Positions 1 through 22,066 of a stretch of 30,570 bases of DNA are shown in pieces. The first letter of the stretch is position 1; each line of letters begins with the position of its first letter. Under the pieces are notes generated by a model. It did no database searches and was not told the origin of the DNA. It saw only the letters and a program-made list of their open reading frames with translations. The stretch lies in UHGV virus genome UHGV-0106128, one strand, 5' to 3'. The position numbers and the translations under genes are program-made. The DNA is from a virus.

Positions 1-103
1 GTTAGCAACGGGCTGGCTGGAAGTGTTTTTTAACCTGCTGTTCTGCGTGCTGGTGATACGCGCACGCGGGAACGTCACAAAAATCTTTCCATTGTTGAGG
101 TGA
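1..103 (+). CDS. 3' end of an upstream ORF (partial), hydrophobic C-terminus; possibly holin or other lysis membrane protein
   Basis: Open frame from position 2 ending at TGA 101-103 (...LATGWLEVFFNLLFCVLVIRARGNVTKIFPLLR); sits directly upstream of the endolysin gene; function inferred from position only. Confidence 0.3.
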   Translation, partial: LATGWLEVFFNLLFCVLVIRARGNVTKIFPLLR

Positions 104-105
104 AT

Positions 106-483
106 ATGTCGGGTAAATTCAGATTCAGCCGTCGCAGTGAAAAAAATCTGGAGGGCGTTAAACCACAGCTGGTTGCTGTCGTTCGCCGTGCGCTGGAGCT
201 GACGGAGGTTGATTTCGGTATTACGGAAGGGCTGCGCACGAAAGAACGCCAGAAACAGCTGGTCGCGGAAGGGAAAAGCCAGACCATGAACAGCCGCCAC
301 CTGACCGGTGATGCGGTGGATGTTGTTGCCTGGGTTGGCAGCCAGGTGTCATGGGACTGGCCTCTGTACGAGAAAATCGCGCAGGCATTTAAGCAGGCTG
401 CCGCAGAGCTGGGAACTGCCATCGAATGGGGCGGGGACTGGAAAACACTGAAAGACGGGCCTCACTTTCAGTTGAAACGCTGA
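106..483 (+). CDS. endolysin, peptidase M15 family (zinc peptidoglycan peptidase of the VanY/L-alanyl-D-glutamate peptidase type)
   Basis: ORF track 100..483; ATG 106 preceded by GAGG 97-100; motifs SRHLTGDAVD and GGDW...DGPHFQ fit the His-Asp-His zinc site of M15 endolysins. Confidence 0.85.
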   Translation: MSGKFRFSRRSEKNLEGVKPQLVAVVRRALELTEVDFGITEGLRTKERQKQLVAEGKSQTMNSRHLTGDAVDVVAWVGSQVSWDWPLYEKIAQAFKQAAAELGTAIEWGGDWKTLKDGPHFQLKR

Positions 484-524
484 TAACCAGGTGTGTTATG
501 AGCAGAAAACACTGGACACACAGA

Positions 525-679
525 ATGCCGCGAACGGCGGCGAAATGGGCACTGGTAGCGATACTGGTGCCTTTTTTCTGGCGGGATGCGTCAGTCTGGA
601 TAAGGCGCGCCAGCTTTTCGATACATCTTCTCAGGTTTGTGAAATTGTCGACGGTGTTCGGCAGTGTATGCAGAACTGA
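525..679 (+). CDS. putative small lysis-cassette lipoprotein (Rz1/o-spanin-like), reading frame changes at T6 tract 572-577
   Basis: Frame from ATG 525 (or ATG 498) encodes MPRTAAKWALVAILVPFF, the n- and h-region of a signal peptide. After a -1 shift at T_TTT_TTC the frame of ORF 491..679 continues LAGC (lipobox) VSLDKARQLFDTSSQVCEIVDGVRQCMQN. Neither frame alone gives a convincing protein. Confidence 0.4.
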
Positions 680-852
680 TCGCCTGTAATAGCAGAATAT
701 TTTGCTGAAAAATGAAGGGTGCGTCAGCGTCCGGAAAGTATGAAATTCTGCTGCGTGTGCCAATTTTATCTTATTCATTCTAAATCTTGCCGAATCAAGA
801 TGAACTTTGATCAACTGCCTGGCGGCAAGGGGCATTAAAACAGGAGAAAATT

Positions 853-960: not shown

Positions 961-1083
961 CAGGCATTACAGCAGCCCTTCAGTGTGAGGGGCTGCGATA
1001 ATGTCAAAGCTCGTTATCAGCACCCGCCGCGCACCCAGCGCACTGGCCGATAGTGGGCTTTTTTATTCATAAAGCGAGGCTGT

Positions 1084-1875
1084 ATGAGCGAGAAATTGAA
1101 GATCGTCTATCGCCCGTTACAAGAACTATCTCCGTATGCACACAATGCCAGGACACACAGCCCTGAGCAGGTGGCACAACTGGTAGAAAGCATTAAGCAA
1201 TTCGGCTGGACTAATCCAGTGCTGATTGATGAAAAGGGCGAAATTATTGCGGGTCACGGTCGTGTTATGGCGGCTGAAGTGCTCAAAATGGATTCGGTTC
1301 CGGTCATTGTTCTGTCTGGTCTGACGGATGACCAAAAAAAGGCGTACCGCCTGGCAGATAATCGCCTGCCGATGAATGCTGGCTGGGATGAAGATCTGTT
1401 ACGGATGGAGCTGTCGGACCTAATCAATGCTGATTTTGATGTCTCCCTGACAGGATTCAGCCCAACAGAAATTGATGAATTGTTGACGGATGTTTTGCCA
1501 GGTACAGGAAATGAGGAGGAGCCGTACACGACGAAAATTGATACGCCTGTTTATGAGCCGTCAGGCGATAAACCGGATATCAGTGAACTGTGCGACGATA
1601 CGAAAACTCAGGAGCTGGTCAGCCGGATACGTTCGGCGTCCCTTGAGCCTGATATCGAAAAATTCCTCCTGTGCGCGGCAGAACGTCACACGGTGTTTAA
1701 TTTCAGCAGAATTGCGGACTATTACGCTCACGCCCCCGCTGAAATTCAGAACCTTTTTGAGGAGTCGGCGCTGGTGATCATTGATTATCAGCAGGCTATT
1801 GAAAATGGATTTGTCCGGATGACGCAGCGCATGGTGGAGATCATGCATGGCGGGGAGGAGGAGGAATATGCGTGA
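1084..1875 (+). CDS. ParB-like nuclease domain (ParB/Srx fold) protein
   Basis: ORF track; GAGG 1074-1077 then ATG 1084; N-terminal region VYRPLQELSPYAHNARTHSPEQVAQLVESIKQFGWTNPVLIDEKGEIIAGHGRVMAA matches the ParB N-terminal domain pattern including the GxGR box. Confidence 0.8.
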   Translation: MSEKLKIVYRPLQELSPYAHNARTHSPEQVAQLVESIKQFGWTNPVLIDEKGEIIAGHGRVMAAEVLKMDSVPVIVLSGLTDDQKKAYRLADNRLPMNAGWDEDLLRMELSDLINADFDVSLTGFSPTEIDELLTDVLPGTGNEEEPYTTKIDTPVYEPSGDKPDISELCDDTKTQELVSRIRSASLEPDIEKFLLCAAERHTVFNFSRIADYYAHAPAEIQNLFEESALVIIDYQQAIENGFVRMTQRMVEIMHGGEEEEYA

Positions 1876-2800
1876 TGATTTTTGCGCCTTTATTCTGACT
1901 CACGGGCGCCCGGACAAAGTTCTGACTTACCGGACGTTGCGTCGTGCTGGCTATACCGGAAAAGTTTTTATCGTTGTTGATGATGAAGATAAGACACGGC
2001 ATCAGTACATAGCTGAATTTGGTGAACAGGTGCTGGTGTTTTCCAAAGCCGATATAGCCAGTCGTTTTGACGAAGCCGATAATTTCGGTGATCGCCGCTC
2101 AATTTTTTACGCCCGTAATGCCTGTTTCGACCTGGCAAAACTGGTCGGGTGTAAATACTTCATTCAGCTCGATGATGATTATCACGAGTTCCAGTTTCGG
2201 GTGGATCGCAACTATGACCAGGCCTATTTCCCGATAAGAAAACTGGATGCGATCCTTTCTGAAATGCTGGCGTACTACGAATCAATACCTGCGCTTTCCA
2301 TCGCTATGTCGCAGGGCGGGGATTTTCTTGGTGACAATGGCGGCCATGCTTCGTGGGTGAAACGCAAGGCAATGAACAGCTTTATCTGTTCGGTTGATCG
2401 ACCGTTCTCATTCATGGGGCGCATTAACGAGGATGTGAATACGTACACGAATCTCGGTCGCTGTGGTGAATTGTTTATGACGATCGGTGCTGTCCAGTTA
2501 GGGCAGAAACAGACGCAGAAAAACAGCGGCGGAATGACCGAGCTGTATCTGGATTCCGGAACCTACGTTAAAAGTTTTTACTCCGTCATGTATGCGCCCT
2601 CGTGCGTAAAAATCTCACTGATGGGGGCCAGCCATAAACGCATTCACCATCAGGTCACCTGGAACAACGCTGCAGTAAAAATCCTTCACGAAAAATACAG
2701 GAAGAAGACACCCTGCATATCAATGGGGGTGACAAATGATTCCGTATTCGAAAGTCGAGTCTCTGGCAGCGTGCCGGATGACTGCACAACAAATCGCTGA
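1868..2800 (+). CDS. GT-A fold (GT2-like) glycosyltransferase, substrate unknown
   Basis: ATG 1868 preceded by GGGGAGGAGGAGGAA 1853-1866 (the ORF-track start 1847 is less likely); motifs FILTHGRPD, KVFIVVDDEDKT and ARNACFDLAKLVGCKYFIQLDDDY fit the GT2 pattern (IIPTYN-like, VVDDgStD-like, arNxGxxxAxGxYixfLDaDD-like). Confidence 0.6.
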   Translation: MRDDFCAFILTHGRPDKVLTYRTLRRAGYTGKVFIVVDDEDKTRHQYIAEFGEQVLVFSKADIASRFDEADNFGDRRSIFYARNACFDLAKLVGCKYFIQLDDDYHEFQFRVDRNYDQAYFPIRKLDAILSEMLAYYESIPALSIAMSQGGDFLGDNGGHASWVKRKAMNSFICSVDRPFSFMGRINEDVNTYTNLGRCGELFMTIGAVQLGQKQTQKNSGGMTELYLDSGTYVKSFYSVMYAPSCVKISLMGASHKRIHHQVTWNNAAVKILHEKYRKKTPCISMGVTNDSVFESRVSGSVPDDCTTNR

Positions 2801-5418: not shown

Positions 5419-6855
5419 ATGGCAGAGATCGAGATTACTGGCGGCCTCGGTTCAGCACTGATGCGTATTCTTGAGGCTGAAGAAATTCAGCCGGGAACCG
5501 ATATTGGCTATGAATTGTGTAAGCTGCTGTGGCAATTCCATCCTCTGGGCGGAAAACTTGTCGAAAAACCCATACTTATGGCGATGTGTAAGCCGCGTCA
5601 GTACAACGTGGAGACAGACCCTGACGAGCGGGTTGTGCGGCGTTTCCAGGAGGTATGGGAACGTATGAAGGTTAACGAGAAGATTAAAAATCTGTTTTTT
5701 CTGTCTCGTTGCTACGGTGCCGCAGCGATCGGCGTGGGCACCGACAGTGTTCCATGTCGTGAGCCGCTTCCGACATTCGGACTGACAGAAGATGATGTGT
5801 ATATCAACGCGTGGGACCCGTTGAACGCTTCTGGTTCGATGGTGACTGACCAGAACCCAAACAGCCCGTTTTTCCAGGAAGCCAATAAAAAGCTGAAGAT
5901 TGGCGGAAAAGACTGGCATCCGTCACGCACACTGAAAATTTTCAATGGCACACCGATTTATCTGGAGTTTCAGAGTTCATCGTTCGGATTCACCGGGCGA
6001 AGCGTGTTTCAGCGTGTTCTTTATTCCCTGAAATCCTATATCAATACGATGGAGGCGAATGATCTCGTCAGCCAGAAGGCAGGCGTACTGGTGGCTAAAG
6101 TTGTGCAGTATGGTTCGAAACTTGACGGGATCATGGCTGCCGCCACGGGACGAAAAAGGGAAAATGTCAAAGAGGCAAAAAATAAAGGTGTGCTTAGTAT
6201 CGGGAAGGATGAGGACGTTACCTCGCTGAATTTACAAAACATCGATGGCGCGCTAAATGCCGCCCGCGACAACATTATTTCTGATATTGCATCAGGTAGC
6301 GATGTTCCCGCGATTCTCATCAAGGAGGAGGCTTTCTCGAATGGTTTCGGTGAAGGAACTGAGGATTCGAAAGCTATCAGCCAGTATATCGATGGTGTAC
6401 GCCAGCAGATTGAACCTGTGATGGATTATTTCGAACGCCTGGTGCAGTACATCGCCTGGAACGAGGAATTTTATCAGTCGCTGAAAAATGATTACCCGGA
6501 CATCATAACTGATGACTATAAAACCACGTTTTACCAGTGGCGACGTGAATTTACCGCGACATGGCAGGAGCTGGTGGAGGAGTCGCCGGACAAACGCCGG
6601 GAAAGCGACAGTAAAGTGATTCAACAGGCGATAGCACTTTTCTCTGCCGTGTCGCCACAGGTTGATCCTGAAAACCGTGCCGCCGTCACTGAATGGCTGG
6701 CAAGCCTTGTTAATGCCACGCAAACCTATGGCGAAGCTCCACTCATCATTGATGTGGACGCGCTGGCGAATTATGAACCACCGAAGCAGGAGACGCCTGA
6801 TGGCAATTTCCAGCCGGGCGGTGAGGAAGAAGAAACGGATCAGGACGCTGTATGA
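5419..6855 (+). CDS. portal protein (putative)
   Basis: ORF track 5416..6855; AGGA 5407-5410 then ATG 5419; size (478 aa), position directly after the large terminase, acidic C-terminus. Confidence 0.65.
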   Translation: MAEIEITGGLGSALMRILEAEEIQPGTDIGYELCKLLWQFHPLGGKLVEKPILMAMCKPRQYNVETDPDERVVRRFQEVWERMKVNEKIKNLFFLSRCYGAAAIGVGTDSVPCREPLPTFGLTEDDVYINAWDPLNASGSMVTDQNPNSPFFQEANKKLKIGGKDWHPSRTLKIFNGTPIYLEFQSSSFGFTGRSVFQRVLYSLKSYINTMEANDLVSQKAGVLVAKVVQYGSKLDGIMAAATGRKRENVKEAKNKGVLSIGKDEDVTSLNLQNIDGALNAARDNIISDIASGSDVPAILIKEEAFSNGFGEGTEDSKAISQYIDGVRQQIEPVMDYFERLVQYIAWNEEFYQSLKNDYPDIITDDYKTTFYQWRREFTATWQELVEESPDKRRESDSKVIQQAIALFSAVSPQVDPENRAAVTEWLASLVNATQTYGEAPLIIDVDALANYEPPKQETPDGNFQPGGEEEETDQDAV

Positions 6856-20249: not shown

Positions 20250-20411
20250 GTGATTAATTTTAGCGGAGGAGACTGGATTGTGAAAGCCTTAAAATTAGTG
20301 GCAAAAAGCAATACCTTACGACGCATGTATTACACCGCTGCACTCGTAGCTTTAGCATTTGCCTTTTCACCAGTACTGACAGAGTTAGTTAAAGTGATGG
20401 GGGCACGATGA
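20250..20411 (+). CDS. small hypothetical protein with hydrophobic C-terminal segment; start uncertain (GTG 20250 or GTG 20280)
   Basis: ORF track 20208..20411; GGAGG 20239-20243 before GTG 20250; possible membrane helix YYTAALVALAFAFSPVL. Confidence 0.3.
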   Translation: MINFSGGDWIVKALKLVAKSNTLRRMYYTAALVALAFAFSPVLTELVKVMGAR

Positions 20412-20755
20412 GAACATGGGGCCGCGTCACCGACGCGAACGGCAACAAAAAATGGGTTGCAGTAGAATCTGACGCCAACGGTGATTTCTCCTACGGCTGG
20501 CTGACGACGCTCATTCAGACGTTAAAGCTGGGATTGGGGGAGTCGCCGTTTTACGCGAATTACGGTATTCCTGCACAGCAGTGCATCGTGCAGCAGATTT
20601 ACCCAGACTACTATGTGAACATGGTTCAGCAACAGTTTGCTGGGTATTTTGCATCACTGGCAATTTCAAAGGTAGATGGAGCAGATAACCCCACCTATAA
20701 CATCGATGTTGTGTTTTTTAATGGGACCAGTTACCGGACGCAGGTGCCGGTATGA
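20408..20755 (+). CDS. baseplate wedge protein (gpW / gp25-like, putative by synteny)
   Basis: 115 aa; ATG 20408 overlaps the upstream stop; position between spike and J genes as in Mu and P2 tails. Confidence 0.4.
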   Translation: MRTWGRVTDANGNKKWVAVESDANGDFSYGWLTTLIQTLKLGLGESPFYANYGIPAQQCIVQQIYPDYYVNMVQQQFAGYFASLAISKVDGADNPTYNIDVVFFNGTSYRTQVPV

Positions 20756-20847
20756 ATCACAGTTTTATGATAAAACTTTTACCTTGGTTTGGAGTGCTGT
20801 AGAGAGATATTTTAGGGGGGGCGAGTAATTTTCTAAGCTGGAGCATA

Positions 20848-20890
20848 TTGACATATATTATTTCGGATTTGCAAAATACATATTGTTACC
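20848..20890 (+). promoter_or_regulatory. candidate promoter of the AT-rich cargo gene
   Basis: Consensus TTGACA at 20848-20853 followed by A/T-rich sequence; the -10 element is ambiguous (TATATT, TACATA and TATTGT are all candidates). Confidence 0.3.
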
Positions 20891-20905: not shown

Positions 20906-22066
20906 ATGGAAAATTTTGCAAATAAGTTAAAAATACACACAGAGCATGTTGCAAAAATGGGGGTGTTTTGTACAACTGAAGAAACGACAAAACAAGCACT
21001 CATTATGCCATTTCTAGATATTCTTGGTTTTACTCCGTATGATCCAAGAAAAGTCAAAGCTGAGTATAGTGCTGACTTCCCCGGGGTTAAGGCTAATGAA
21101 CGGGTTGATTACGCTTTATTTTGTCATGATGTTCCTGTGATGTTCATTGAGGCGAAATCGTTTTCAGAACAAATTGATAATCACTGCCCACAGCTATCAA
21201 GATATTTTAATTCAACACCGGAAGTTACTATATCAGCCATTACAAATGGTGTTGAATGGCGTTTTTTTACGGATTTGAAACAAAAAAACATAATGGATTC
21301 AACGCCGTTTTTAAAAATAAGAATGGATTCTCTAACTCACTCCGATATTACACAATTATTTCGTTTTCGTTATGATAAATTCAAACCAGAGGCTTTGCGG
21401 ACACTGGCTGAAGAAAGTGTTTATTTGAATTCATTTACTAAAACAATCAGTTCTAGTCTTCGTGAAGTTGATCTGGAGTTTGTTCGATATGTTGCTAGTC
21501 GTTCAAATATTGAGAGACAACTTAATCAGAGATTTCTTGAGTTCGTGACTCCATTAGTTAAACAGGCCGTTGAGCGCGCTGTTAGCGCAATGGTGGTTTC
21601 CGGGCTATCTACACAACCGGTAGAGCAAACTAAAGAAAATGATGCAACGGATACACAAGTTAATAACGCCATTGTTGATGAAGAAAACCCCAACATAATA
21701 ACCACAGCCAAAGAATTGGAACTATTTGAAAGGGTAAAACAAATCATACAAACAGAAGATAATATAGAATATAAAGATACTGAGTCATATTTTGGTGTAC
21801 TATTGAATGGTAAAACTAATAGATGGCTGTTAAGATTTTATGATAAAAAATCTTCATTTATAACATTACCTATTTCGCTTAGTGAAGTTCAGTTGAATGA
21901 AATAAGACGAGCTCGACTTGATACGGATGGTAAAAGGATACATATAACTAATCCGGAAGATATACTTCGCATATCTGGTTTGATTCTGGATTCATACGAG
22001 TATGTTAAAAATGATGATAATTTCCGCCGAGGGTCCAGAGTGAGCAGTTTAGAAGAGGTTGAATAA
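20906..22066 (+). CDS. 386-aa protein with N-terminal PD-(D/E)xK nuclease-like domain (type I restriction HsdR N-terminal-like); C-terminal ~250 aa unassigned; candidate defence gene
   Basis: ORF track 20891..22066; GGAGGAG 20893-20899 then ATG 20906; visibly AT-rich; motifs PFLDILGF, ERVDYALF and VMFIEAKS (D68, E82, K84); flanked by a promoter-like sequence and an intrinsic terminator. Confidence 0.75.
   Translation: MENFANKLKIHTEHVAKMGVFCTTEETTKQALIMPFLDILGFTPYDPRKVKAEYSADFPGVKANERVDYALFCHDVPVMFIEAKSFSEQIDNHCPQLSRYFNSTPEVTISAITNGVEWRFFTDLKQKNIMDSTPFLKIRMDSLTHSDITQLFRFRYDKFKPEALRTLAEESVYLNSFTKTISSSLREVDLEFVRYVASRSNIERQLNQRFLEFVTPLVKQAVERAVSAMVVSGLSTQPVEQTKENDATDTQVNNAIVDEENPNIITTAKELELFERVKQIIQTEDNIEYKDTESYFGVLLNGKTNRWLLRFYDKKSSFITLPISLSEVQLNEIRRARLDTDGKRIHITNPEDILRISGLILDSYEYVKNDDNFRRGSRVSSLEEVE

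What the first reader, a model, noticed from the sequence alone, without database searches (positions are those of the whole stretch)
498..679. Lysis-cassette lipoprotein encoded across two frames joined at a T6 tract
One frame gives a perfect signal-peptide n- and h-region (MPRTAAKWALVAILVPFF) but then runs into an implausible basic tail. The overlapping frame supplies the lipobox and a plausible 30-aa mature peptide (LAGC-VSLDKARQLFDTSSQVCEIVDGVRQCMQN) but has no hydrophobic signal of its own. A -1 slip, or one extra T, at T_TTT_TTC (572-578) fuses them into a canonical ~60-aa lipoprotein. This is either a homopolymer sequencing error, a decaying gene, or a slippage-controlled lysis or outer-membrane lipoprotein. 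No Rz-like i-spanin ORF is evident nearby.
Basis: seen in the sequence. Interest (0 to 1): 0.5.

Follow-up and report, generated by a model that had tools for sequence, protein, structure and literature searches.

The report
Frameshifted prophage lysis lipoprotein gene
A small phage lipoprotein gene next to the cell-wall-digesting enzyme has lost one T from a run of seven, which splits it over two reading frames; this is a real, inherited and probably inactivating mutation, not a programmed recoding signal.

Summary
ATG 498 opens a frame that encodes a signal peptide. A -1 shift at T_TTT_TTC (572-578) joins it to the frame that carries the lipobox LAGC and a 30-residue mature peptide. The fused 60-aa protein matches PHROG 7528 end to end (E 1.5e-37).

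In relatives the gene is a single uninterrupted ORF, and the extra base may be T, C or A. One E. coli assembly is identical to the window over 2,059 flanking bases but carries T7. So the window has a one-base deletion.

It is not an assembly error. The same allele is indexed in 128 blocks of the public collection, and five independent assemblies were checked at DNA level.

It is not a conserved programmed frameshift either. About 98% of copies need no shift, no downstream stimulator is present, and the alternative-frame tail is not conserved.

At least six other lineages carry independent one-base deletions in the same ~10 bases, and no insertions were found.

New here: the T run is the U-tract of a stable, sequence-conserved RNA hairpin (547-572). 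It looks like an intrinsic terminator embedded in the signal-peptide codons. Its function is untested.

No i-spanin partner exists in the window.

Verdict: an ordinary null or leaky allele at a mutational hot spot.

The parts
100..483 (+). M15-family endolysin gene (L-alanyl-D-glutamate peptidase type), intact. It lies immediately upstream of the lipoprotein gene.
   Evidence: ORF. Pfam Peptidase_M15_4 E 3e-12. PHROG 465 endolysin E 1e-75. RefSeq annotation as M15 metallopeptidase.
489..493 (+). Shine-Dalgarno-like AGGTG, with 6 nt between the AGG and ATG 498. The GTG at 491 that RefSeq uses as the start of the frame-B ORF lies inside it.
   Evidence: Read directly from the sequence. The frame-B CDS WP_023568490.1 is annotated from 491.
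498..578 (+). 5' part of the lipoprotein gene in frame A: start codon, basic n-region and hydrophobic h-region (MSRKHWTHRMPRTAAKWALVAILVPFF).
   Evidence: Residues 1-28 of the frame-A product match PHROG 7528 positions 1-28 (E 3e-12).
547..572 (+). RNA hairpin GGGCACUGGUA-GCGA-UACUGGUGCCU: 11 pairs including 3 G.U, with a GNRA loop. It abuts the T run, giving intrinsic-terminator-like geometry inside the signal-peptide codons.
   Evidence: - Flagged by the terminator scan.
- MFE -18.7 kcal/mol, z = -4.36, 0 of 200 shuffles fold as well.
- Stem kept in Salmonella, Citrobacter, Lelliottia and Yersinia relatives while the rest of the gene diverges.
- 98.5% of cells paired across 12 variants, but no compensatory double changes.
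- No Rfam family.
572..577 (+). T6 run: the site of the one-base deletion (T7 in the otherwise identical allele), the core of the formal slippery heptamer T_TTT_TTC (572-578), and the U-tract of the hairpin.
   Evidence: L139 carries T7 with 0 differences in 2,059 flanking nt.
578..679 (+). 3' part of the lipoprotein gene in frame B: lipobox L-A-G-C (578-589), mature peptide CVSLDKARQLFDTSSQVCEIVDGVRQCMQN, stop TGA 677-679.
   Evidence: Two further Cys are invariant or nearly invariant in the family. AlphaFold2 predicts a continuous helix over residues 12-59, mean pLDDT 76.
498..689 (+). The ORF that standard decoding of this allele would translate: 63 aa, an uncleaved signal-anchor followed by an out-of-frame basic tail.
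   Evidence: The tail is not conserved in divergent relatives (7 aa in L267, 16 aa in Lelliottia).

Best explanation
This is the small outer-membrane lipoprotein gene that follows the endolysin in phiP27-type lysis cassettes. It belongs to PHROG 7528 and is the gene that Kongari et al. 2018 listed as the phiP27 o-spanin.

In this E. coli prophage lineage the gene carries a genuine, inherited one-base deletion (T7 to T6) between the codons for the signal-peptide core and those for the lipobox.

Standard translation from ATG 498 therefore gives a 63-aa membrane-anchored peptide with a nonsense basic tail. The lipoprotein itself is lost, apart from whatever trace spontaneous -1 slippage on U_UUU_UUC provides. 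I infer that trace to be well under 1%.

The allele is tolerated because late genes are silent in a lysogen.

The deletion sits where it does because the family keeps a T run there as the U-tract of a conserved RNA hairpin, probably an internal terminator, attenuator or RNA-stability element. The hairpin-plus-homopolymer is a recurrent hot spot for one-base deletions.

Shown: the deletion, its inheritance, its recurrence, the in-frame state of relatives, and the stability and conservation of the hairpin.

Inferred: loss of function, the low level of rescue, the role of the hairpin, and the lysis role of the lipoprotein.
For: 1. Relatives have one continuous ORF. DH5alpha-labelled strain T7; O169:H41 strain T6+A; phiP27 T6+CC. 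RefSeq annotates a 60-aa CDS there.

2. L139 (GCA_025098445.1) is identical to the window over 559 + 1,500 flanking nt and differs only by T7 against T6.

3. The allele is real. The frame-B protein is indexed in 128 blocks of the collection and 24 contigs were read. Five separate assemblies and two IMG/VR contigs have the same T6 with 0-2 SNPs in the flanks.

4. It is rare in the family:
- IMG/VR: 4 one-base-short alleles against 268 relatives.
- Metagenomes: 1 of 33.
- Complete E. coli genomes: 3 genomes with T6-C among 326 that match the region.

5. The fused frame is the coding frame on both sides of the tract. The synonymous share is 41% and 38% there, against 16-25% in the other frames.

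6. Recurrence. Each of five further frameshift alleles has an intact neighbour at 0-1 differences in 168 nt and lies 7-14 differences from other frameshift alleles, except L136 and L137, which share a background. The C-T6-CC allele's nearest intact relative is 8 differences away. The events are CC-T7-C to CC-T6-C or C-T7-C, and CC-T6-CC to CC-T5-CC or C-T6-CC. A further event occurs in a divergent gut-metagenome lineage.

7. There is no stimulatory structure 3' of the heptamer (z = -0.56). Unstimulated heptamers in E. coli give only 2-10 times a 0.055% background (PMC4066793).

8. Hairpin: dG -18.7 kcal/mol, z = -4.36. In Lelliottia, 29 of 31 nt are identical in hairpin plus T run against 52% elsewhere, and 8 of 9 same-amino-acid codons are identical against 5 of 20 elsewhere, p = 0.003. 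Third-position variability is 3 of 11 codons against 34 of 49, p = 0.015. In L270 the loop is replaced (ACCU) while the stem is kept.

9. The largest frameshift lineage (P0123, indexed in 206 blocks) has changed the nearly invariant D52-G53 to G-D, as expected for relaxed constraint.
Against: - Several independent lineages carry only one-base deletions (9-base tract types), and no 11-base insertion allele was found in IMG/VR or metagenomes. All of these deletions are formally correctable by a -1 shift on a U run. That pattern could reflect selection for leaky alleles rather than mutational bias alone. The numbers are small (4 and 1 against 0), and insertion alleles would escape the protein-based counts.
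- The T6 lineage is large, and no second disabling mutation was seen in it, so decay is not demonstrated for this lineage.
- The hairpin has no compensatory double substitutions. It is absent from one distant relative (L268) and lacks the U run in another (L269). Its function, and its link to the hot spot, are therefore inferences.
- No expression or lysis data exist for any allele.
Confidence: 0.8

Rival explanations
1. Programmed or adaptive recoding. The one-base-short alleles are low-expression variants in which -1 ribosomal slippage on U_UUU_UUC, or insertion of an extra U by RNA polymerase at the hairpin-plus-U-run, supplies a small, useful amount of lipoprotein. This would be a 'savior indel' with compensatory frameshifting.
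For: - A canonical X_XXY_YYZ heptamer in the zero frame.
- At least seven independent deletions in the same ~10 nt, no insertions, and all correctable by a -1 shift.
- Large lineages keep the allele (indexed in 128 and 206 blocks).
- A stem-loop with a GNRA loop directly 5' of a T/C run has the same anatomy as the Roseiflexus IS630 slippage stimulator (PMC5009743).
- The concept of savior indels is established (PMC5009743).
Against: - About 98% of copies are in frame.
- There is no 3' stimulator.
- Unstimulated heptamers give about 0.1-0.5% in E. coli.
- Two tract types (CC-T5-CC and C-T6-CC, the latter the most abundant frameshift allele) lack a tandem-slippage heptamer.
- The one characterised stem-loop slippage system yields transcripts lacking a base, whereas rescue here needs an added base.
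- The hairpin is equally present in in-frame alleles, so it did not evolve for rescue.
Confidence: 0.1
2. Phase variation. The T run is a contingency tract that switches the lipoprotein on (T7) and off (T6) by slipped-strand mispairing.
For: A T7 twin with zero flanking differences sits within the diversity of the T6 clade. T7 alleles make up 26 of 235 intact-length copies in the pooled loci, which are not a random sample, yet account for four of the six E. coli-type deletion events whose parent could be assigned.
Against: - The run is only 6-7 nt long.
- One T7 assembly was found against T6 indexed in 128 blocks on this background.
- No T8 or other +1 length was found.
- Most of the family has T6 followed by A or C and so cannot switch by T-run slippage.
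- Some events delete a C, not a T.
- A late lytic gene is an odd target for on/off switching in a lysogen.
Confidence: 0.05
3. Sequencing or assembly error at a homopolymer in this one assembly.
For: The site is a homopolymer next to a strong hairpin. The record is a whole-genome-shotgun chromosome of unknown platform.
Against: The identical allele occurs in many unrelated assemblies and projects and in IMG/VR. The RefSeq protein accession for the frame-B ORF, WP_023568490.1, has a low number relative to newer accessions in the same record. I take that to mean it was registered from earlier genomes; this is inferred from the numbering, not checked.
Confidence: 0.02
4. Two genuine overlapping genes: the frame-A 63-aa membrane peptide and the frame-B peptide are separate functional products. 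For example, they could be an i-spanin-like anchor and an o-spanin made from one locus.
For: The frame-A product has a type II topology (N-terminal TMD plus a 36-aa tail), formally like a miniature i-spanin. The +1 frame is open for 37 codons in most E. coli alleles.
Against: - Frame B has no signal peptide and no credible ribosome-binding site.
- The variable sites are enriched at third positions of the fused frame, which are second positions of frame A.
- The frame-A tail is cut to 7 aa in L267 and to 16 unrelated aa in Lelliottia.
- In in-frame alleles frame A is not reached at all.
Confidence: 0.02

Closest known systems
phiP27 'o-spanin' (coordinates 20706-20861 of AJ298298) as assigned bioinformatically by Kongari et al. 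2018, BMC Bioinformatics 19:326 (PMC6139136); equals PHROG 7528
   Same: It is the same gene family. The phiP27 copy is more than 90% identical, has the same lipobox and the same 30-residue helical mature part with two further Cys, and holds the same position after the M15 endolysin.
   Different: The phiP27 copy is in frame (T6+CC); the window copy is one base short.

The i-spanin that the paper pairs with it (20348-20542, a 64-aa TTG ORF) lies in an insertion that the window and most relatives lack. It matches no PHROG or Pfam family, and it is antisense to an ORF that matches PHROG 36812 end to end. The two-component assignment is therefore doubtful.

No experiment on this protein was found.
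Lambda Rz1 and other o-spanins of two-component spanins
   Same: A small outer-membrane-type lipoprotein with no Asp at +2, encoded at the distal end of a holin-endolysin cassette, with periplasmic cysteines.
   Different: - No cognate i-spanin is embedded, overlapping or adjacent.
- The mature part has no proline and is predicted helical, whereas Rz1 is proline-rich and unstructured (own knowledge, and PMC6139136).
- There is no significant sequence match to spanin families (best is PHROG 6073, E 0.19).
Frameshift pseudogenes at homopolymer runs, with possible low-level compensatory slippage ('savior indel' concept, Atkins et al. 2016, PMC5009743)
   Same: A one-base indel in a short homopolymer disrupts an otherwise intact gene. 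The run itself is shift-prone, so trace correction is conceivable.
   Different: No benefit of the indel and no measured correction is known here.
Roseiflexus IS630 stem-loop-stimulated transcriptional slippage (Penno et al. 2015, as summarised in PMC5009743), and intrinsic terminators
   Same: A stable stem with a GNRA tetraloop lies directly 5' of a T-then-C run: GCGGGC-gcaa-GCCCGC + T5C5 there, and GGGCACUGGUA-gcga-UACUGGUGCCU + U6C(C) here.
   Different: In the IS element slippage is needed to make the transposase, and it removes a base. Here the family's normal alleles need no slippage, and the T6 allele would need a base added. Neither termination nor slippage activity has been tested.

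Membership tests
Bacterial lipoprotein (Lgt/LspA substrate; PROSITE PS51257-type rule) | A basic n-region, an uncharged hydrophobic h-region and a lipobox [LVI][ASTVI][GAS]C, with the Cys at residue 15-35. | tested here: met
   The fused 60-aa and 51-aa forms pass all three rules (AILVPFFLAGC, Cys31 or Cys22). Frame A alone and frame B alone both fail. The rule was written from memory and applied by script.
Bacterial lipoprotein (Lgt/LspA substrate; PROSITE PS51257-type rule) | The protein is actually lipidated and cleaved. | not testable with these tools
   This needs globomycin sensitivity, palmitate labelling or mass spectrometry.
PHROG 7528 / phiP27 lysis-cassette lipoprotein | An end-to-end profile match. 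| tested here: met
   The fused product matches 1-60 of 60 positions, E 1.5e-37. The frame-A product matches only positions 1-28.
PHROG 7528 / phiP27 lysis-cassette lipoprotein | One uninterrupted ORF of about 60 codons. | tested here: not met
   The window is one base short in the T run. In this genome the gene is therefore a disrupted allele of the family.
PHROG 7528 / phiP27 lysis-cassette lipoprotein | Position directly after the endolysin of a holin-holin-endolysin cassette. | tested here: met
   There are 14 nt between the endolysin stop and ATG 498. The same position holds behind a non-homologous GH108 endolysin, with an ATGA overlap, in Yersinia and two other relatives.
Two-component spanin, o-spanin subunit | A cognate i-spanin (N-terminal TMD plus a periplasmic domain) that is embedded, overlapping or adjacent. 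| tested here: not met
   There is no such ORF on either strand in 1-1083. The two upstream membrane proteins are multi-TMD holin families. The phiP27 candidate is not conserved and is probably spurious.
Two-component spanin, o-spanin subunit | An outer-membrane lipoprotein signal with periplasmic cysteine(s). | tested here: met
   Lipobox present, Val at +2 and Ser at +3. Cys48 is invariant and Cys57 invariant or nearly so in the family. The sorting rule is established knowledge, not tested here.
Two-component spanin, o-spanin subunit | Sequence relatedness to a described o-spanin family, or functional complementation of an Rz/Rz1 defect. | tested here: not met
   The best spanin PHROG hit has E 0.19. 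A profile search of 1.84 billion representatives finds only 25 proteins, all of them this narrow family or low-scoring matches. Complementation is not testable here.
Programmed -1 ribosomal frameshift site | A slippery heptamer X_XXY_YYZ in the zero frame. | tested here: met
   T_TTT_TTC at 572-578, with frame-A codons CCT TTT TTC.
Programmed -1 ribosomal frameshift site | A stimulatory element: a 3' stem-loop or pseudoknot at 5-9 nt, or a suitably spaced 5' SD-like sequence. | tested here: not met
   Folding of 572-680 gives z = -0.56. The only stem begins at base 7 of the heptamer. The strong hairpin lies 5' of the site.
Programmed -1 ribosomal frameshift site | The need to shift is conserved among homologues, and both products are conserved. 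| tested here: not met
   About 98% of copies are in frame. The zero-frame tail is not conserved.
Intrinsic (Rho-independent) terminator | A stable G+C-containing stem-loop followed at once by a U-rich tract. | tested here: met
   An 11-pair stem, a GCGA loop, then U6; dG -18.7 kcal/mol, z = -4.36.
Intrinsic (Rho-independent) terminator | Transcripts end there, or the site lies at the end of a transcription unit. | not testable with these tools
   The site lies 50-80 nt inside an ORF. It needs 3'-end mapping with and without late-gene antitermination.
Stem-loop-stimulated transcriptional slippage (Roseiflexus IS630 type) | A stem-loop 5'-adjacent to a short T/C run, and slippage required for the functional product. 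| tested here: inconclusive
   The anatomy is met. The requirement is not met in in-frame alleles. For the T6 allele the documented direction (loss of a base) would not restore the frame.
Phase-variable homopolymer (contingency locus) | A long tract with both longer and shorter lengths among close relatives. | tested here: not met
   The tract is 6-7 nt. One T7 twin was found against T6 indexed in 128 blocks. No +1-length allele was found.

The most novel reading that the evidence does not exclude
The conserved hairpin-plus-U-run inside the signal-peptide codons is a working RNA-polymerase pause, termination or slippage element that sets how much lipoprotein the phage makes. On this reading, the recurrent one-base-short alleles are not dead genes but low-output variants. 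Hairpin-assisted insertion of a U by RNA polymerase, or -1 ribosomal slippage, would restore a small functional amount of an outer-membrane-disrupting lipoprotein that works without an i-spanin.
Probability: 0.06. Interest if true: 0.65.

Novelty: new member of a known kind. Interest (0 to 1): 0.27.

Why it matters
As a frameshift finding it is ordinary. It corrects an annotation: RefSeq calls the signal-less frame-B ORF a hypothetical protein. It also shows that the split gene is a mutant allele, not recoding.

Three by-products may be useful to phage-lysis researchers.

1. This narrow lipoprotein family is the only candidate for outer-membrane disruption in phiP27-type (Stx2e-type) lysis cassettes, and the published i-spanin partner looks spurious. 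How these phages breach the outer membrane is therefore open.

2. Nature has supplied matched T7 and T6 lysogens, identical in 2 kb of flanks. They could be induced side by side to test the gene's role.

3. A stable, sequence-conserved terminator-like hairpin sits inside a signal-peptide coding region and coincides with a hot spot of one-base deletions. It is a small, testable case of an RNA element constraining a coding sequence and making it fragile.

Tried and rejected
- Allele-specific megablast with a T7 query in complete E. coli genomes returned no match, although locus L001 contains that exact sequence. I presume the low-complexity filter masks T7. T7 could therefore not be counted there.

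- Pfam and NCBIfam give nothing for the fused protein or for either frame.

- Rfam gives nothing at the hairpin. Weak sub-threshold hits elsewhere (isrN-like, E 0.26) were ignored.

- The loci from the first pattern scans were selected by an exact match to the 3' arm of the hairpin, so they are biased for conservation tests. I repeated the test on loci found by peptide patterns.

- Covariation test of the hairpin: no pair has changes on both sides, so there is no covariation proof.

- Dual-coding idea, with the frame-A tail as a mini i-spanin made by slippage: rejected because the tail is not conserved.

- Downstream frameshift stimulator: rejected.

- AlphaFold2 gave only one long helix. I judged it too featureless for a fold search, so none was run.

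- The profile search of 1.84 billion representatives found no link to any larger family.

- Literature searches found no experimental work on this protein.

Full report
**What is in the sequence**

The window begins inside the lysis cassette of a prophage of E. coli strain GmM062. The prophage lies at a Rac-type locus, between ompN/uspF and kilR/recE.

An intact M15 endolysin gene ends at 483. Fourteen bases later, behind an AGGTG, ATG 498 opens frame A: MSRKHWTHRMPRTAAKWALVAILVPFF. This frame then runs on as a 36-residue basic tail to TAA 687-689. The -1 frame (frame B) reads ...GAFF-LAGC-VSLDKARQLFDTSSQVCEIVDGVRQCMQN and stops at 677-679.

The T run is 572-577 (T6). With C578 it forms T_TTT_TTC in frame A. 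The fused product passes a PROSITE-type lipoprotein rule, and neither frame passes alone.

**The fused reading is the real gene**

- The fused 60-aa sequence matches PHROG 7528 over its whole length, E 1.5e-37. The frame-A product matches only positions 1-28.
- Close relatives have one continuous 60-codon ORF. A strain labelled DH5alpha has T7, an O169:H41 strain has T6 followed by A, and phage phiP27 has T6 followed by CC. RefSeq annotates a 183-nt CDS in the first two.
- In loci from IMG/VR and metagenomes, 65 of 74 unique intact-length alleles encode a 60-aa ORF.
- The share of synonymous variants is highest in the fused frame on both sides of the tract: 18 of 44 and 26 of 69, against 16-25% in the other frames.
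- Invariant residues include K16-W17, VAILVPF, GC-VS, and Cys48 and Cys57.

**The window carries a one-base deletion, and it is real**

Assembly GCA_025098445.1 (locus L139) is identical to the window over 559 bases upstream and 1,500 bases downstream of the tract. It differs only in having T7, and it encodes exactly the fused protein.

The frame-B protein of the window (RefSeq WP_023568490.1) is indexed in 128 blocks of the public collection. Five separate NCBI assemblies and two IMG/VR contigs were checked at DNA level. All have T6, with 0-2 SNPs in 2 kb of flanks and the same gene neighbourhood. A homopolymer error private to this assembly is thus excluded.

**Frequency of the shifted state**

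The shifted state is the exception.

| Collection | One-base-short alleles | Comparison set |
|---|---|---|
| IMG/VR | 4 contigs with a 9-base tract | 268 relatives |
| Metagenome scan | 1 | 33 hits in total |
| Complete E. coli genomes | 3 genomes with T6-C | 326 genomes that match the region |

In most copies the base that keeps the frame is A or C, not a seventh T. The family does not depend on slippage.

**Recurrence**

One-base-short alleles occur on several different sequence backgrounds. For five of them an intact allele with 0-1 differences in 168 flanking bases exists. The frameshift alleles themselves differ from one another by 7-14 bases, except L136 and L137, which share a background. 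The C-T6-CC allele's nearest intact relative is 8 differences away.

The inferred events are:
- CC-T7-C to CC-T6-C, twice.
- CC-T7-C to C-T7-C, twice.
- CC-T6-CC to CC-T5-CC.
- CC-T6-CC to C-T6-CC, with the parent not sampled.
- A further event in a divergent gut-metagenome lineage, TC-T5-AT.

No allele one base longer was found in IMG/VR or in metagenomes. The counts are small, and a deletion bias at homopolymers is not unusual.

The largest frameshift lineage (P0123, indexed in 206 blocks) has also changed the nearly invariant D52-G53 to G-D. This fits relaxed constraint.

**Why a T run sits there: a conserved hairpin**

The terminator scan flagged 547-572, GGGCACTGGTA-GCGA-TACTGGTGCCT, directly followed by the T run. 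As RNA it folds at -18.7 kcal/mol with z = -4.36, and none of 200 shuffles folds as well. Three of its 11 pairs are G.U, so the structure is specific to the sense RNA.

The stem is identical or nearly so in Salmonella, Citrobacter, Lelliottia and Yersinia relatives and in one further relative. The loop is GCGA or GCAA.

- Against Lelliottia (54% protein identity), hairpin plus T run is 29 of 31 identical, against 52% for the rest of the gene.
- In the same comparison, codons for identical residues are the same in 8 of 9 cases inside the hairpin against 5 of 20 outside, p = 0.003.
- In a set chosen by peptide patterns, third positions vary in 3 of 11 hairpin codons against 34 of 49 elsewhere, p = 0.015.
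- In the divergent metagenome lineage the loop is replaced (ACCU) while the stem is kept.
- All but one of the single substitutions seen in the stem keep pairing through G.U.

The limits are these. No pair changes on both sides, so there is no covariation proof. One distant relative has no hairpin, and another has a shorter one without a U run. No Rfam family matches.

I read this as a probably functional RNA element: an internal terminator or attenuator of the late transcript, or a 3'-end stabiliser. Its U-tract forces two or more Phe/Leu codons rich in T into the signal peptide. It thereby creates the fragile site. A conserved recombination joint is an alternative that I cannot exclude.

**Could slippage rescue the T6 allele?**

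Ribosomal slippage:
- The heptamer is canonical, but nothing significant folds 3' of it (z = -0.56).
- In E. coli, heptamers without a stimulator give only 2-10 times a 0.055% background (PMC4066793).
- Two of the five frameshift tract types seen in E. coli-type lineages lack a tandem-slippage heptamer.

Transcriptional slippage:
- The hairpin with a GNRA loop next to a T/C run has the anatomy of the Roseiflexus IS630 stimulator.
- That system yields transcripts lacking a base (PMC5009743), whereas T6 needs a base added.
- Runs of 6-7 are otherwise poor slippage sites; high efficiency is reported for 9.

The -1-transcript product (the frame-A tail) is not conserved. It is 7 residues in one relative and 16 unrelated residues in Lelliottia, so a two-product design is also unsupported. 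Rescue, if any, should be a trace.

**What the lipoprotein is**

Kongari et al. 2018 list the phiP27 copy (20706-20861) as the o-spanin of a 'separated' two-component spanin. It has the shortest periplasmic length in their survey (32 + 30 residues) and is 83% helical (PMC6139136).

Their i-spanin (20348-20542) is a 64-aa TTG ORF inside a roughly 470-bp insertion that the window and most relatives lack. It has no PHROG or Pfam match, and it is antisense to an ORF that matches PHROG 36812 end to end.

The window has no i-spanin-like ORF. The two upstream membrane proteins belong to multi-TMD holin families. A survey of Stx phages reports Rz in 277 of 279 phages, and the two-member Stx2e cluster has its own holin and endolysin phams; I infer that this cluster is the pair without Rz (PMC8136144).

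The gene keeps its place behind a non-homologous GH108 endolysin, with an ATGA overlap, in Yersinia and other relatives. This ties it to lysis.

The mature part has no proline and is predicted as one helix. The family is narrow: 25 representatives among 1.84 billion proteins.

It therefore works, at most, like an o-spanin. It fails the membership test for a two-component spanin, and its mechanism is unknown.

**Verdict**

Of the three options offered, the mutated-gene option fits, the sequencing-error option is refuted, and the slippage-control option is unsupported.

The allele is most likely null or strongly leaky-down, carried silently in a lysogen.

Interest is low to moderate. It rests mainly on the conserved hairpin at the hot spot and on the orphan status of the lipoprotein.

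Noticed in passing
window 547-577 (+): A stable RNA hairpin with a GNRA loop directly precedes the T run, inside the signal-peptide codons. It is conserved at synonymous sites across E. coli, Salmonella, Citrobacter, Lelliottia and Yersinia relatives. It has intrinsic-terminator-like geometry, and its function is unknown.
   Followed up: yes
L004 (phiP27 AJ298298) 1149-1343, i.e. phage coordinates 20348-20542: The ORF listed as the phiP27 i-spanin in Kongari et al. 2018 is a 64-aa TTG ORF in an insertion that is absent from the window. It has no family match and is antisense to a 90-aa ORF that matches PHROG 36812 end to end. The two-component spanin call for phiP27 looks unsafe.
   Followed up: partly
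window 484-497; compare L004 995-1478, L133 1091-1453 and L136 855-1453: The gap between the endolysin and the lipoprotein gene is an insertion hot spot. It is 14 nt here, but about 360-600 nt in the relatives examined at sequence level, and larger still to judge from match spans in other genomes, with differing cargo. Some lineages have a small C-terminal-TMD protein (PHROG 4493) that ends in TGATATGA right at the lipoprotein start.
   Followed up: partly
L265 1201-1383, L267 1201-1383, L268 1201-1383: In Yersinia and other relatives the same lipoprotein gene follows a non-homologous GH108 + PG_binding_3 endolysin, with a 4-nt ATGA overlap. The lipoprotein therefore stays with the cassette when the endolysin is swapped.
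   Followed up: partly
window 1084-2800 (+): A ParB_N-domain gene (263-aa continuous ORF) overlaps a TAGT/GREB1-related glycosyltransferase-like gene just upstream of the terminase genes, possibly forming a DNA-modification module. RefSeq splits the continuous ParB ORF into a 'ynaK' pseudogene (1084-1341) and a separate CDS (1372-1875).
   Followed up: no
window 389-835 (-): A 148-aa antisense ORF spans the endolysin end and the whole lipoprotein gene, and it is called as a gene in at least one assembly (L143). It has no recorded family hit and is probably spurious.
   Followed up: no
window 5419-6855 and 20906-22066 (+): RefSeq annotates an anti-CBASS Acb1-family protein next to the terminase large subunit, and a 'type I restriction endonuclease' gene between baseplate genes. 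Both are possible defence or counter-defence cargo in the morphogenesis region.
   Followed up: no
window 968-1098 (-): A weak, sub-threshold Rfam hit to the isrN Hfq-binding sRNA (17 bits against a gathering score of 44, E 0.26) lies in the 400-nt non-coding stretch between the lipoprotein gene and ParB. It is probably chance.
   Followed up: no
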